Shown piece after piece: positions 49,371 through 52,883 of a stretch of DNA of 64,000 nt. The DNA lies in the IMG/VR virus record IMGVR_UViG_3300034159_000051, positions 32,001-96,000 of that record. One strand, given 5' to 3'. Position 1 is the first letter of the stretch. Each line of letters begins with the position of its first letter. The notes under the pieces are model-generated. The model searched no databases. It was given only the letters and a program-made list of their open reading frames with translations, and was not told where the DNA came from. The position numbers and the translations under genes are program-made. Source of the stretch: a virus.

Positions 49371-49399
49371 TTGCGTAGCGATTAAGCGGAGGTTATAGT
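49371..49399 (+). promoter_or_regulatory. Sigma70-type promoter of the guide-array operon
   Basis: TTGCGT-17 nt-TATAGT immediately before the first stem-loop unit. Confidence 0.7.
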
Positions 49400-49530
49400 C
49401 TTTGAAAGAGGGTCGGCCCAGAGAACATATCCATTCATAGGCCGTATTGCGGTTGCCGACTTTCTTTCAAAGCCGCGCCGGGGCCAAGCGCTGCCTGTAA
49501 CCCGATACCGGTTTTCTCTGGCGCGGCTTT
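49400..49530 (+). ncRNA. Two leader dual-spacer stem-loop units
   Basis: stem-GGCCC-AGAGAACAT-loop-TATTGCGGT-TGCC-stem; stem-GGCCA-AGCGCTGCC-TGTAACCCG-ATACCGGTT-stem. Confidence 0.65.
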
Positions 49531-49551
49531 GAACAAACGAAAGGGATCAGA

Positions 49552-50346
49552 ATGGAACACAACAAAGCAACGGAGACGCCAAGGTTCGCTACGCCTCCGG
49601 TGTTTGCCGTCTCTCAATTCGAAAAACAGCGCATGCTCATCCTCCATGCATGGTATTCCGATTTTATCGCTGAGGGCGGCAAGCCGGTTGAATTTATGCG
49701 CGAGGTTATCGTGCGTATCCACCGCGTTCAGACCGTTTTTGACGGCAAGCTGTCCGTCAACGCGTTGTTCGAACCCATCCCGCCCCGGGCGGATGATAAC
49801 CCCTTCGATTCCTCTTCGGCTGGCCCGGTTTCTGGCGCCGACGGCCACACCACCAACGCCAGCCGATCCCCCAATGAGCAGGGCCGAAAGGATGGCGCCG
49901 AAAGGCTGGTCGCTGATCGCCCTGCTCAGCATGAAAGCGCCTCCGGCCAGGAAGCAGACGCTCAAGGTCGCGAGCCGAGCGCCGGAAGCGCTCCCCAAGA
50001 CGGCGGGCGAGGTCATAATGACCTTGCCGGCAACGGCCGCCACGTTAGCGCCTCGCCCGTCCGTCGAAACACCGGTCCCAATGAGCTGCAGCGGGAAATC
50101 GCCCGAGAAGTCGCCCAATCGGCCGCCAAGACGATCCTGGAAACATTCCGGTTCGCGAACGGGTCCGCCCTCGGCGAGGTTTATCTTAACGACCTCGAAA
50201 ACTACGAGATGAAAAGCTCCGTTGACGCCTTTGTCGCCCGGCAAATCCGGCTCGCGTTCAAAGGCCACCCAAATTGCCGGGTCAAGGAGCTGCCTCTTGG
50301 GACCATTGAGGCGATCGTCAGCCGAGCCAACAAAGAGGCCGAGTGA
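49552..50346 (+). CDS. Hypothetical protein whose central linker is encoded by four guide-like units
   Basis: AAGGGATCAGA-ATG start; globular-looking ends; stop overlaps the start of the Nop-domain gene. Confidence 0.7.
   Translation: MEHNKATETPRFATPPVFAVSQFEKQRMLILHAWYSDFIAEGGKPVEFMREVIVRIHRVQTVFDGKLSVNALFEPIPPRADDNPFDSSSAGPVSGADGHTTNASRSPNEQGRKDGAERLVADRPAQHESASGQEADAQGREPSAGSAPQDGGRGHNDLAGNGRHVSASPVRRNTGPNELQREIAREVAQSAAKTILETFRFANGSALGEVYLNDLENYEMKSSVDAFVARQIRLAFKGHPNCRVKELPLGTIEAIVSRANKEAE
49818..50060 (+). ncRNA. Four dual-spacer stem-loop units inside the CDS
   Basis: Same stem-GGCCN-9nt-loop-9nt-CGCC-stem grammar as the downstream array. Confidence 0.75.
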
Positions 50347-51209
50347 TGGGCGAGGATATCGAAAGGCTCGTCGAGCAGATCCGCTATTGGCACCGGCAGC
50401 GCTGTTTCGCGATGGAACAGCGCAAGCGATCGGTTTTGGCCACGGCGGCTTTTTTGCGCATCGACCTCGGCTGGAACCCGGACCTTCCTAAAAAAGAGCG
50501 CGACGTCATCTCCGCCAAGGCGCTCGACATGCTTAAGCCGGGCGGCGTCGCCCCAGAACATCCTATGTTCGAAATGATCATGGCCTCCCATGCCGCGCGG
50601 GCGCCGTTTCTCGGCGTAGAGACAAAGGCGACGAAACAAATGGAAGCGCTCGCCAAGACGTTGCCGGTCTGGAACGCATGGGCGCGCGACGTCCGGGCGT
50701 TCGGCCCGCGATCGCTTGCCGTCATTGTCGGAGAGGCTGGAGACATTGGCTCCTACAGCACGCATTCGAAGCTTTGGAAACGCATGGGCCTCGCCGTCAT
50801 CAACGGCGTGCGGCAGGGCGGCCTGAAAAAGACGGCCAAAGCCTCGGAATGGATCGAGCACGGCTACAACGCCAAGCGCCGCGCATCGTCCTTTGTGATC
50901 GGAGATTGCCTTGTGAAGCAGGGCGCGGAGTTCCGCGAAGTCTATCTCGCCAGGAAGGAATATGAGCGCGCCAAGGCCATCGAGCGCGGTCTGATCGTTG
51001 CGCCGGCCGCCAAGATCCCAAAAGGCCAGGAGGAGCATTACATCTCCGACGGCCACATCCATAAGCGCAGCCAGCGCTACATGGAAAAGAAGCTCCTGCG
51101 CCGGTTATGGCAGGAATGGCGGAAGATCGGCAGGGAGGACATGACCCAACCTGGAGACGCCGACATCCCGCCGCTCGCTATGGAGCGCGTTAACGAGATC
51201 GCCGCATGA
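50343..51209 (+). CDS. Nop-domain RNA-binding protein, TIGR-TasA-like (IS110 C-terminal homolog, no nuclease domain)
   Basis: Coiled coil, then VRAFGPRSLAVIVGEAGDIGSYSTHSKLWKRMGLAV (Transposase_20/Nop-like), GYN..R and GHIHKRSQRYMEKKLL..LW..WR; no RuvC/DEDD or HNH domain visible; adjacent array. Confidence 0.85.
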   Translation: MMGEDIERLVEQIRYWHRQRCFAMEQRKRSVLATAAFLRIDLGWNPDLPKKERDVISAKALDMLKPGGVAPEHPMFEMIMASHAARAPFLGVETKATKQMEALAKTLPVWNAWARDVRAFGPRSLAVIVGEAGDIGSYSTHSKLWKRMGLAVINGVRQGGLKKTAKASEWIEHGYNAKRRASSFVIGDCLVKQGAEFREVYLARKEYERAKAIERGLIVAPAAKIPKGQEEHYISDGHIHKRSQRYMEKKLLRRLWQEWRKIGREDMTQPGDADIPPLAMERVNEIAA

Positions 51210-52128
51210 GCGGCGCGCGGGAGGCCAGTTCAGCTACGCCGAGCGGCCGCTTGGTTATCGCCTCCCGCGACTCGGTTAAGCAGGGCCAGCGTACTGACGC
51301 CGAGAGGCTGGTTATGGATCGCCCTGCTTTCGAATCAGGAGAGGCCATTGGCTAAGAGCCGCAAGGACATACTGCATCCGCCTCTCCTTTCCTTTTTCTC
51401 GGGTCACAGCAAACGAGCCGATAGGCCACGTCAACCTTTCCCGAGAATCCGGTTAAGCAGGGCCTTGCCAATAGATCCGAAAGGCCATGGTCCGGACGCC
51501 CTGCTTTCCCTTTTGCGAGGCCCAACACCAGCCGCCGAAAGGCCATCCTTTCTGCGCCTCGCAATCCCTTTTCCTTGGGCCAATACGTTCGCGCGAAAGC
51601 CAAGCTCGCATCGCCCAAGGTTCCCACTTTGCGAGGCCAAACTCGCGCTGCCGAAAGGCCATGGTTTCAGCACCTCGCAATCCCCTATGGGCGGGTCCAA
51701 GTCTCGTCGCCGCAAGGCCGAGGACCGAATTCCCGCCCAACCCAACGACGGAAGGCCAGCGATCGCGCTCCATCGAAGGTCATCGAATTGGCGCCTTCCG
51801 TCCCCCTCATTCAAAGTTTGCCGGGCCATTCATGAATTGCCGCACAGCCAAAGAGCTAACGCCCGGCGCCTTCTTTGTAGGGCCAGAACTATCGCGCCGG
51901 AAGGCCGCGTCGACTCTGCCCTGCAAAACTATTTCGCGAGGCCAGCTAGCGATTGGCGAAAGCCCAAACCAAAAACGCCTCGCGATCCTCAACGACGGAA
52001 GGCCATATTACGCGCGCGCTACAGCGCCATGGACTTTTCGCCTTCCGTCTTTCTATTCAGAGTTTGCCAGGACAGCCTTCTAATGCCTAACGGCCACCCC
52101 TGCTTTTCCTGGCGCTCTTCACAAGAGT

Positions 52129-52205
52129 GGTCCCGTAGCTCAACTGGACAGAGCGCCAGCCTTCTAAGCTGGGTGTTGGGGGTTCAAGTCCCTCCGGGAT
52201 CGCCA
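52129..52205 (+). tRNA. tRNA-Arg(TCT), embedded in the array
   Basis: GGTCCCG acceptor stem; CCAGC-CTTCTAA-GCTGG anticodon arm; GGTTCAAGTCC; encoded CCA. Confidence 0.95.
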
Positions 52206-52583
52206 ACCCTTTGCCGGGCCGGATTACTATCGCCGCAAGGCTATCCACGAAGCGCCCGGCGATCCCTTTGCGAGACCTCCATACGGATGCCGAAAGGCCA
52301 AAAATGGGACGTCTCGCATCCCTACAGCCCGGCCACCTCCTGCGCGCCGAGAGGTCAGTCAAACCACGCCGGGCTACTTCTTGCAGGGCCAAATCAGATG
52401 CGTCGAGAGTCCATTTTTCCGGCCGCCCTGCATCCTATCCGCTTCGGCGGGCGCGCGGCCGCGGATGGAAAGTCGAAAGGCCGCCCTTGTCTTGCCGCGC
52501 GCAACCCTTTGCCGGGCCACTGCCTAAGCGCCGAAAGGTCAGGTTATCACTGCCCGGCGATTCATTTACAAGGATGCGATTTC

Positions 52584-52883
52584 TTGAACGACTTTCCGAA
52601 AGCTCTCAATGAATGGCAATCCAAGCTCTACGATCTCGGATACCCGGGGCCTTATGAAGCGGGATCGATGATGATTGCCGCTACGCGAAAAAGAAGAATC
52701 GATAATTTTAGCCTTGTTAGATATTCCCCCAGGGACTGGCATGCCGAAGTAACATTCAAGCCCGACCAAAGGCCGGCAACTGTTGATCACCCTTATGGCT
52801 CCCTTGAGGGAAAGGGCAAGACCCCAGAAGAAGCCGTCGCAAATCTCATGATTGCGCATCCTGAACTTTGGCGGGTAGCATAA
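52584..52883 (+). CDS. Small hypothetical protein inserted in the array
   Basis: AAGGA then a TTG start; non-repetitive; ends GKTPEEAVANL, like 21191-21565 (GATPEEAVADL). Confidence 0.6.
   Translation: MNDFPKALNEWQSKLYDLGYPGPYEAGSMMIAATRKRRIDNFSLVRYSPRDWHAEVTFKPDQRPATVDHPYGSLEGKGKTPEEAVANLMIAHPELWRVA

What the first reader, a model, noticed from the sequence alone, without database searches (positions are those of the whole stretch)
49818..50060. Four guide-RNA units hidden in-frame inside a protein-coding gene
Seen: within ORF 49552-50346 are four consecutive units with intact outer stems and 9+9 spacers: GGTTTCTGG/CACCACCAA, AAAGGATGG/GTCGCTGAT, GGAAGCAGA/CGAGCCGAG and TAATGACCT/CCACGTTAG. 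The second uses the same GCAGGGCC...CGCCCTGC scaffold as downstream units 2 and 5. The frame stays open and encodes a disordered-looking linker between two globular-looking ends. Inference: dual-coding DNA, where processing out the guides would destroy the mRNA of this gene and uncouple the downstream Nop gene, forming a feedback switch. Alternatively the array invaded a tolerant linker.
Basis: partly seen in the sequence, partly recalled or inferred. Interest (0 to 1): 0.82.

Follow-up and report, generated by a model that had tools for sequence, protein, structure and literature searches.

The report
Guide RNAs inside tasA partner gene
In a peat phage, four hairpin guide-RNA units of an RNA-guided DNA-binding system (TIGR-TasA) sit in frame in the floppy middle of the protein gene just before tasA, so one stretch of DNA seems to serve as both protein linker and guide array.

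Summary
Confirmed. The window is part of a 129,260-bp phage record. It carries a stem-loop TIGR-TasA system: tasA (50346-51209; the ten best Foldseek hits are all Tas structures) followed by 26 two-spacer hairpin units.

A covariance model built only from those 26 units finds three of the four claimed units inside ORF 49552-50346, at E 5e-7, 4e-7 and 1e-4. The third unit is degenerate (E 1.2).

The ORF looks like a real gene:
- The phage's start-associated 10-mer abuts its ATG.
- Its stop overlaps the tasA start.
- It belongs to an unnamed family that lies directly upstream of tasA in 11 of 11 independently fetched loci.

In 14 of 14 loci the frame runs through the linker. Thirteen carry hairpin units there and one has none. 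Between two relatives the scaffolds are 83/97 identical and the spacers 9/36, with compensatory stem changes and a 66-nt whole-unit indel.

I read the DNA as dual-use. Expression, processing and the proposed feedback switch are untested. In the papers I searched, intragenic tigRNAs are described only for tas itself (Xu 2026 preprint). This scan has already noted the same layout in other genomes.

The parts
49542..49551 (+). Phage start-associated 10-mer (AGGGATCAGA), ending directly before the ATG of the host gene
   Evidence: There are 42 copies with at most 1 mismatch in the window against 3.76 expected. Of those, 37 of 42 are followed within -2..+15 nt by a start codon opening an ORF of at least 50 aa, against 435 of 2000 random positions. 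This copy is exact and sits 0 nt from the ATG.
49552..50346 (+). Host gene: 264-aa partner protein of TasA. It has an N-terminal helical hairpin, a disordered linker and a conserved C-terminal domain.
   Evidence: ORF listing. hhalign against the family profile A4 gives probability 98.4%, E 9e-15. Homologues were found. AlphaFold2 model. No Pfam, PHROG or PDB sequence match. The antisense ORF 50268-49435 has no conserved counterpart in the related loci.
49816..49866 (+). In-ORF guide unit 1 (residues about 89-105)
   Evidence: R1 40.6 bits, E 5.4e-7. Nine of 9 stem pairs form and the unit starts in codon phase 0.
49876..49927 (+). In-ORF guide unit 2, with the same stem as downstream units 2 and 5
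   Evidence: R1 41.2 bits, E 4e-7. 10-bp stem and 34-nt loop.
49939..49989 (+). In-ORF guide unit 3, degenerate
   Evidence: R1 12.7 bits, E 1.2. Eight of 9 stem pairs form. The layout is kept but the central mini-hairpin is weak.
50002..50061 (+). In-ORF guide unit 4, with a 12-bp stem whose two arms are read as mirror-image codons
   Evidence: R1 30.4 bits, E 1.1e-4 at 50005-50058. 12-bp stem and 36-nt loop.
50062..50346 (+). Coding region of the conserved C-terminal domain. Its stop (50344-50346) overlaps the tasA start.
   Evidence: pLDDT about 93. GC by codon position is 0.64/0.42/0.72, like the other genes of the window. No in-frame ATG, GTG or TTG lies between 49765 and 50209.
50346..51209 (+). 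tasA: Nop-domain Tas protein without a nuclease domain (287 aa from the ATG; a GTG lies at 50343)
   Evidence: phmmer hit to PDB 9MTY, E 3.2e-9. 9MTY is the TasR RNP. AlphaFold2 pLDDT 87. The ten best Foldseek hits are TasR or TasH structures, best E 1.8e-7, followed by IS110-family recombinases.
51217..53193 (+). Downstream stem-loop TIGR array of 26 units in three blocks: 51217-52115, 52211-52560 and 52894-53193
   Evidence: Read, aligned, R1 hits.
52129..52205 (+). tRNA-Arg(TCT) gene between array blocks 1 and 2
   Evidence: ARAGORN. Rfam tRNA, 65.3 bits.

Best explanation
The four hairpins are units of the phage's stem-loop TIGR array, that is, two-spacer guide RNAs for the nuclease-free Tas protein TasA. 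They lie in frame in the intrinsically disordered linker of a conserved, so far unnamed gene that is translationally coupled to tasA.

The stretch 49816-50061 is used twice:
- As mRNA, it is read from the ATG at 49552 through to 50346, giving a Gly/Ala/Pro/Arg-rich tether between two folded domains.
- As RNA, each unit folds into an outer stem that presents two 9-nt spacers flanked by box C-like and box D-like motifs, the form TasA binds.

Selection acts on the RNA scaffold and on keeping the frame open, not on the linker's amino acids.

The layout most likely arose when the array grew into, or moved into, a linker that tolerates any stop-free insert of 3n length. Units are GC-rich and rarely hold stops, so this costs little.

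Shown here: the anatomy, statistical identity with the neighbouring array, family-wide conservation of the layout, scaffold-versus-spacer evolution and frame maintenance.

Inferred: translation of the linker, processing of these units and their loading into TasA. Units 1 and 2 look fully canonical, unit 4 is borderline and unit 3 is decaying.
For: 1. The units match a model trained only on the downstream array, and the RNA folds into four hairpins.

2. The neighbouring gene is a Tas protein.

3. The gene looks real.
- An exact start-associated motif abuts the ATG.
- The stop overlaps the tasA start.
- Both ends have a coding-like GC pattern and fold confidently.
- The C-terminal domain has no start codon of its own.
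- No shorter, C-domain-only homologues turned up, and all 23 representative hits are 177-293 aa long.

4. The gene pairing is conserved. Twelve loci were fetched through the partner protein alone, and a tasA homologue lies directly downstream in 11 of the 11 loci with room to show it.

5. The frame is maintained.
- In 14 of 14 loci a single ORF runs from the N-terminal domain through the linker to the C-terminal domain.
- Over 1083 linker codons in 13 loci there are 0 in-frame stops, against 20 and 37 in the other two frames (L004 row left out).

6. The units are conserved as RNA.
- There are 27 in-ORF R1 hits (E < 1) in 12 loci, with 25 distinct stems. 212 of 243 stem positions pair, against 44-55% when the 3' partner is slid.
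- Hairpins with a stem of at least 10 bp number 24, against 5.07 +/- 2.03 in codon shuffles (maximum 12 in 300 shuffles).

7. L002 versus L010 shows guide-like evolution.
- Scaffolds are 83/97 identical and spacers 9/36. Third codon positions of the C-terminal domain are 49/91 identical.
- One stem carries two compensatory double changes.
- The two genes differ by one 66-nt whole-unit indel.

8. In relatives, in-ORF units show the complementarity between the last bases of the two spacers as often as units outside the gene do: 8 of 16 against 10 of 25.

9. Precedent. Stem-loop tigRNAs embedded in frame in disordered parts of tas genes have been recovered by small-RNA sequencing (Xu 2026 preprint, sections 5 and 11 read).
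Against: - There are no RNA or protein data for this phage.
- Unit 3 is not significant, and unit 4 scores below all 26 training units.
- In this window 0 of 4 in-ORF units show the last-base complementarity, against 14 of 26 downstream units.
- CTT, the processing motif reported by Xu et al., lies within 12 nt upstream of 1 of 4 in-ORF units and downstream of 0 of 4. For downstream units the figures are 12 of 26 and 14 of 26.
- The linker lacks the usual GC dip at codon position 2 (0.78/0.62/0.66). This is expected if the RNA dictates the sequence, but it means codon statistics give no support for translation.
- An open frame over four units is likely by chance: 20 of 26 downstream units are stop-free in that phase.
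- The closest homologue of this particular gene, P0002, was seen only as protein. Its DNA could not be fetched.
Confidence: 0.72

Rival explanations
1. Relic or exapted array. The hairpins descend from guide units, but in this phage they are no longer processed or loaded. The stretch now serves only as a flexible protein linker, and the stems persist by recent descent.
For: - Unit 3 is degenerate and unit 4 is sub-canonical.
- 0 of 4 units show the spacer-end complementarity seen in 14 of 26 downstream units.
- The CTT motif is largely missing between the in-ORF units.
- None of the 30 guides has a target in the phage's own genome better than decoys. That holds for the downstream units too.
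Against: - Units 1 and 2 score inside the range of the working-looking array.
- Across 12 loci the stems stay paired although their sequences differ.
- Between L002 and L010 the scaffolds are more conserved than third codon positions while the spacers are replaced, which is not what neutral decay gives.
Confidence: 0.15
2. Cis-regulatory reading, the reader's feedback switch in its strong form. The main role of the in-ORF hairpins is to be bound by TasA, or cut, on the operon mRNA. This would throttle translation of the partner gene and of the coupled tasA. Supplying guides would be secondary.
For: - tasA has no start-associated motif of its own, and its start overlaps the partner gene's stop, so its translation probably depends on ribosomes passing the linker.
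- No sigma-70-like promoter or plus-strand terminator was found between 48800 and 53285.
- Xu et al. raise a link between tigRNA maturation and tas translation for guides inside tas.
Against: - Nothing here measures regulation.
- Spacers turn over freely. That fits guides better than fixed operator sites, although scaffold binding would not need fixed spacers.
- Relative L006 keeps the gene pair without any unit in the linker.
- In 5 or 6 of 14 loci the two genes do not overlap.
Confidence: 0.1
3. Not dual-coding. The ORF is not translated through the linker. It would be either two small genes or a chance open frame in GC-rich DNA, and the four units would be an ordinary non-coding upstream sub-array.
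For: - A clearly spurious 511-aa ORF (51348-52883) runs over most of the downstream array.
- Two of the three linker frames are open.
- The linker's codon-position GC pattern is not gene-like.
Against: - The N-terminal part has no stop and the C-terminal domain has no start.
- The start motif sits at 49552.
- The same single-ORF layout holds in 14 of 14 divergent loci, with 0 in-frame stops against 57 in the other two frames.
- The window's four units are spaced in multiples of 3.
- No split forms were found.
Confidence: 0.05

Closest known systems
Intragenic stem-loop tigRNAs inside tas coding sequences (Bifidobacterium longum BlTasA; TIGRFinder survey). Xu et al. 2026, bioRxiv 10.64898/2026.09.09.750476. 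Sections 11 and 12 read in full; passages of sections 5, 13 and 21 read.
   Same: Stem-loop units lie in frame in disordered segments of a protein gene without breaking the frame. The same box C / 9-nt spacer / box D layout applies. The authors likewise suggest a link between guide maturation and translation.
   Different: There the host gene is tas itself. Here it is a separate, conserved gene of unknown family upstream of tasA. I found no mention of such a gene in the passages I searched. Figures and supplements were not visible.
Stem-loop TIGR-TasA system of a Peromyscus leucopus gut contig (PlTasA). Faure et al. 2025, PMC12045711, section 9 read.
   Same: A nuclease-free TasA. [quoted passage not shown] The array is split into sub-arrays. 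Each processed RNA is a single stem-loop.
   Different: That array is described as lying in non-coding sub-arrays. Here one sub-array of four units lies inside a coding gene, and the main array has 26 units.
tasParB-tasA operons. Faure et al. 2025, PMC12045711, section 44 read.
   Same: A conserved accessory gene sits in an operon with tasA, with arrays upstream of, downstream of or between the two genes.
   Different: Those loci have dual-repeat arrays and a ParB-like protein. Here none of the 26 family members matches a ParB Pfam family, and the units lie inside the gene, not beside it.
Eukaryotic box C/D snoRNAs hosted in introns of protein genes (recalled, not checked here).
   Same: Guide RNAs with box C/D architecture are cut out of the transcript of a protein-coding host gene.
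   Different: Those guides sit in introns and are never translated. Here the guide sequence itself is read as codons.

Membership tests
Stem-loop TIGR array unit (tigRNA) | Variable but palindromic outer stem of at least 5 bp | tested here: met
   The stems span 9-12 bp: perfect 9, 10 and 12 bp in units 1, 2 and 4, and 11 bp with one C-A mismatch in unit 3. The minimum-free-energy fold gives four hairpins.
Stem-loop TIGR array unit (tigRNA) | Two 8-12-nt spacers, each between a box C-like triplet and a box D-like doublet, with a short connector between the two halves | tested here: met
   All four units read as triplet + 9 nt + CG/TG, connector, triplet + 9 nt + CG. Model R1 is significant for 3 of 4. 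The box C triplets vary (CCC, CCA, CCG, CTG, TCG, TCA), as they do in the downstream array.
Stem-loop TIGR array unit (tigRNA) | Tandem units next to a tas gene, on the same strand | tested here: met
   The units are 285-530 nt upstream of the tasA start on the plus strand, and 26 further units follow tasA.
Stem-loop TIGR array unit (tigRNA) | Transcribed, processed to single stem-loops and bound by Tas | not testable with these tools
   No RNA run holds this DNA. This needs small-RNA sequencing of a TasA pull-down.
Stem-loop TIGR array unit (tigRNA) | CUU motif at the base of the stem, marking the processing site (Xu et al., section 11) | tested here: inconclusive
   CTT lies within 12 nt upstream of 1 of 4 in-ORF units and downstream of 0 of 4. 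For downstream units the counts are 12 of 26 and 14 of 26.
TasA (nuclease-free Tas protein) | Nop-domain fold shared with solved Tas proteins | tested here: met
   phmmer hit to 9MTY, E 3.2e-9. Foldseek ranks 1-10 are TasR or TasH structures with probability 1.00, best E 1.8e-7.
TasA (nuclease-free Tas protein) | No RuvC or HNH nuclease domain | tested here: met
   The protein is 287 aa, and 258-291 alignment columns are covered by the Tas core. There is no Pfam hit at E <= 0.1. The only PHROG hit is the transposase family phrog_4285, over residues 91-265.
Intragenic tigRNAs as described by Xu et al. 2026 | [quoted passage not shown] | tested here: not met
   The units lie in ORF 49552-50346, a different gene in a different frame from tasA. 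It works like that case but is not an instance of it.
TasParB accessory protein | ParB-like domain | tested here: not met
   No ParB family among 26 members scanned against Pfam at E <= 1. No PDB sequence match for the family profile. Foldseek gives no hit at E < 0.2.
TasA partner-protein family (unnamed, defined here) | Conserved C-terminal domain of about 90 aa, encoded directly upstream of tasA | tested here: met
   hhalign probability 98.4%, E 9e-15 against profile A4. tasA follows in 11 of 11 testable loci fetched through this protein.

The most novel reading that the evidence does not exclude
The linker of the tasA partner gene is a living guide array. Units are gained, lost and given new spacers while they are being translated, so whatever mechanism renews TIGR spacers works inside an open reading frame. 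TasA binding or cutting of these hairpins on its own operon mRNA sets the level of both proteins. This would be an RNA-guided system that autoregulates through guides written into a coding sequence.
Probability: 0.25. Interest if true: 0.8.

Novelty: new variant of a known kind. Interest (0 to 1): 0.58.

Why it matters
TIGR-Tas systems are new (2025). How their arrays arise, grow and renew spacers is an open question that the discoverers state themselves (Faure 2025, discussion passage seen).

Guides written in frame into a second, conserved gene show three things:
- The array is not confined to non-coding DNA or to tas.
- Spacer replacement and whole-unit gain or loss happen under the added constraint of keeping a frame open. 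That narrows the possible mechanisms.
- Many TasA systems of alphaproteobacterial phages and prophages come with an uncharacterised partner protein that no annotation names.

For annotation, array finders that mask coding sequence, and gene callers that distrust low-complexity linkers, will both misread such loci. For engineering, it suggests guides can be nested in a coding sequence at little cost.

Tried and rejected
- Complex prediction (TasA plus the C-terminal domain of the partner): no verdict. I use it neither for nor against binding.
- The look-up of sequencing runs: no RNA holder listed. Two DNA runs of peat metagenomes may be the source of this DNA.
- Function of the partner protein:
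  - No Pfam, PHROG or PDB sequence match.
  - Foldseek against the PDB gave nothing at E < 0.2. The weak hits recur on ribosomal protein S13, Fpg/Nei and sIHF, which I recall as helix-two-turn-helix proteins. This is a lead only.
  - The protein Atlas gave scores below 0.9.
- Self-targeting: none of the 30 guides (26 downstream plus 4 in-ORF) has a site in the 129-kb genome, in either arrangement, with a gap of 0-6 and at most 3 mismatches, that beats reversed-spacer decoys. The two 2-mismatch hits lie in the array itself.
- I did not scan public collections for 18-bp targets. At that size of collection chance matches are expected, so a hit would not be informative without host information.
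- Searching viral contigs with the 264-aa protein alone found no relatives. A family alignment was needed.
- L004, an AT-rich locus with 33% Tas identity: its upstream 180-aa ORF is not shown to be a family member (hhalign probability 6%). I dropped it from the family counts. It is still one of the 15 ORFs in the shuffle tests, where it contributes 1 and 0 hairpins.
- Mirror-codon test on the 22 homologues known only as protein: 34 mirrored stems against 22.0 +/- 4.3 in shuffles, with a shuffle maximum of 34. This is weak support only.
- Hairpins with a stem of at least 8 bp are a noisy measure: 40 against 18.2 in shuffles, with per-locus counts often within the shuffle range.
- The hairpins at 49400-49531 are not significant with R1 (9.2 bits on the plus strand, 11.3 bits on the minus strand), so they are not counted as units.
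- Rfam has no family for the units.
- Codon phase: 21 of 27 in-ORF model hits start in phase 0. Hit boundaries shift by 1-2 nt where stems are bulged, and the loci are related, so I draw no conclusion beyond noting a preferred phase.

Full report
**What the region is.** The window is bases 32001-96000 of a 129,260-bp virus record with direct terminal repeats. DNA runs that hold it come from peat metagenomes. On the plus strand lie:
- ORF 49552-50346 (264 aa)
- a 287/288-aa ORF, 50343/50346-51209, whose start overlaps the first ORF's stop
- from 51217 to 53193, 26 hairpin units in three blocks, interrupted by a tRNA-Arg(TCT) gene and a lower-GC stretch

The second protein hits the TasR chain of PDB 9MTY by sequence (E 3.2e-9). 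Faure et al. 2025 name 9MTY as their TasR RNP model. Its AlphaFold2 model (pLDDT 87) has TasR and TasH structures as its ten best Foldseek hits, followed by IS110-family recombinases. With no nuclease domain, it is a TasA.

The 26 units share one plan: a variable palindromic stem, a box C-like triplet (mostly CCA), 9 nt, CG or TG, a small GNRA-capped mini-hairpin, a second triplet, 9 nt, CG, then the other stem arm. This matches the stem-loop TIGR arrays of Faure et al. (section 9) and the box sets used by TIGRFinder (Xu et al., passage).

**The observation.** To avoid circularity I built covariance model R1 from the 26 downstream units only and searched the whole window without filters.
- Units 1, 2 and 4 score 40.6, 41.2 and 30.4 bits (E 5.4e-7, 4e-7, 1.1e-4).
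- Unit 3 scores 12.7 bits (E 1.2).
- The training units score 38.1-52.3 bits.
- Nothing outside 49816-53193 reaches E < 0.1.

The 265-nt stretch folds into four separate hairpins (z = -4.15). So three units are statistically the same kind of element as the array, two of them fully canonical, and one is decayed.

**Is the ORF a gene, and is the linker translated?**

Evidence in this phage:
- A 10-mer noted by earlier readers of this scan occurs 42 times in the window against 3.76 expected. It precedes a start codon in 37 of 42 cases, against 22% of random positions. An exact copy ends at 49551, directly before the ATG.
- The N- and C-terminal parts have gene-like GC by codon position and fold confidently, while residues of about 81-170 do not.
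- There is no in-frame start codon between 49765 and 50209 and no stop before 50344. The conserved C-terminal domain can therefore only be made by reading through the units.
- The antisense ORF has no conserved counterpart in the related loci.

Evidence from relatives:
- The protein has one close homologue (P0002, 40% identity) and 21 distant ones of 177-293 aa, and none shorter.
- Using an alignment of the core family, I fetched 12 further loci from viral, genome and metagenome collections. The four loci from genomes are Hyphomicrobium, Bauldia, Zhengella and Aminobacter.
- In 11 of the 11 loci with room to show it, a tasA homologue follows immediately.
- Two of the three loci fetched through TasA also have the family upstream. 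For the third, L004, homology is not shown.
- In 14 of 14 loci a single ORF runs from the N-terminal domain through the linker to the C-terminal domain.
- Over 1083 linker codons there are 0 in-frame stops, against 20 and 37 in the other two frames. The non-coding array of this window has 0.013-0.018 stops per codon position.
- In 8 of 14 loci the gene's stop overlaps the tasA start.

The partner family has no Pfam, PHROG or PDB match and no convincing structural neighbour.

**Are the in-ORF units conserved as RNA?** R1 finds 27 hits (E < 1) inside the partner gene in 12 of the 14 loci.
- Their 25 distinct stems pair at 212 of 243 positions, against 44-55% when the partner strand is slid.
- A thirteenth locus, L005, has four hairpins with 9-13-bp stems that R1 misses.
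- The fourteenth, L006 (190 aa), has no linker and no units in the gene. It has seven hairpins with 9-16-bp stems immediately upstream of it.
- Long-stem hairpins are about five times more frequent in these ORFs than in codon-shuffled versions: 24 against 5.07 +/- 2.03.
- The region ahead of the C-terminal domain lengthens with the hairpin count: r = 0.80, about 15.5 aa per hairpin (a noisy measure).
- The stems are conserved enough to appear as motifs in the protein alignment, because the two arms are read as mirror-image codons.

**The clearest test.** L002 and L010 are close enough to align base by base. In two shared units:
- stems, boxes and centres are 83/97 identical
- the four spacers are 9/36 identical, about what chance gives
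- third codon positions of the C-terminal domain are 49/91 identical

The scaffold is therefore under purifying selection and the spacers have been replaced faster than silent sites change. That is the behaviour of a guide array, here inside an open reading frame. One stem shows two compensatory double changes. L002 also has one extra unit as a 66-nt, 22-codon insertion.

In the window's own subfamily (P0002, P0006 and P0009, seen as protein only), the residues encoded by the scaffold of unit 2 are conserved and those encoded by its spacers are not. This is inference from protein sequence, because the DNA could not be fetched.

**What argues for caution.**
- Staying open over four units is cheap. 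Twenty of the 26 downstream units are stop-free in the phase used and two of three linker frames are open. A 511-aa spurious ORF covers most of the downstream array. The window alone would not prove translation. The comparative data do most of the work.
- This window's four units differ from its downstream units in two small ways. None shows complementarity between the last bases of its two spacers (0 of 4 against 14 of 26; in relatives, in-ORF units show it in 8 of 16). The CTT motif that Xu et al. tie to processing is nearly absent around them.
- No RNA data exist.

**Mechanism.** Most likely (about 0.7) the stretch is used twice: translated as a disordered tether, and folded, bound and trimmed as guides for TasA. 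Xu et al. show that such proteins act as RNA-guided repressors (section 12).

Nothing here tests it. Relatives without overlap or without linker units show it is not obligatory.

**Novelty.** Xu et al. (2026 preprint) report stem-loop units inside tas coding sequences, in disordered regions, without frame disruption, and recovered them by small-RNA sequencing for BlTasA. Faure et al. say TasA lacks clear associations with other proteins, apart from tasParB in dual-repeat loci.

Searches for papers combining tigRNA with intragenic, and TasA/TIGR with accessory and stem-loop, plus passage searches in the three relevant texts, found no description of guides inside a second gene or of this partner family. 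Figures and supplements could not be seen.

Earlier agents of this scan reported the same layout in at least four other genomes. That agrees with the family-wide picture found here but is not independent proof.

I class it as a new variant of a known kind.

Noticed in passing
window 49400-49531: Two hairpins lie in the gap upstream of the partner gene: an 18-bp stem at 49400-49472 and an 8-bp stem at about 49479-49531. By eye both have a box/9-nt/box layout like degenerate guide units. R1 does not support them (9.2 bits on the plus strand, 11.3 bits on the minus strand). Folding of 49390-49555 gives z = -2.2.
   Followed up: partly
window 52129-52205: A tRNA-Arg(TCT) gene sits between array blocks 1 and 2.
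   Followed up: no
window 52570-52883: A lower-GC stretch between array blocks 2 and 3 holds the only gene-like part of the spurious 511-aa ORF, roughly its last 100 codons. It may be a small real gene nested in the array.
   Followed up: no
L007 4475-4663; L002 6840-6893: In relatives, the first units after tasA lie inside a C-terminal extension of the tasA ORF. In L007 there are three units spaced 69 and 72 nt apart. This fits the intragenic-tas layout of Xu et al.
   Followed up: partly
L006 2254-2725: A relative whose partner gene has no linker carries seven hairpins (stems of 9-16 bp, loops of 31-44 nt) directly upstream of that gene. The upstream sub-array can therefore sit before the gene instead of inside it.
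   Followed up: partly
L009 3441-3664: In this locus further units lie between the partner gene and tasA, within an open N-terminal extension of the tasA frame. The linker of the L009 partner protein is a three-fold protein repeat of about 24 aa, matching units of 72 nt.
   Followed up: partly
window, 42 sites (for example 46442, 47966, 49542): The 10-mer AGGGATCAGA precedes start codons on both strands (37 of 42 copies). tasA and the array have none.
   Followed up: yes
window 51217-53193 and relatives: The last bases of spacer A and spacer B are complementary in 14 of 26 downstream units. About a quarter would be expected by chance. In relatives the count is 18 of 41 units.
   Followed up: partly
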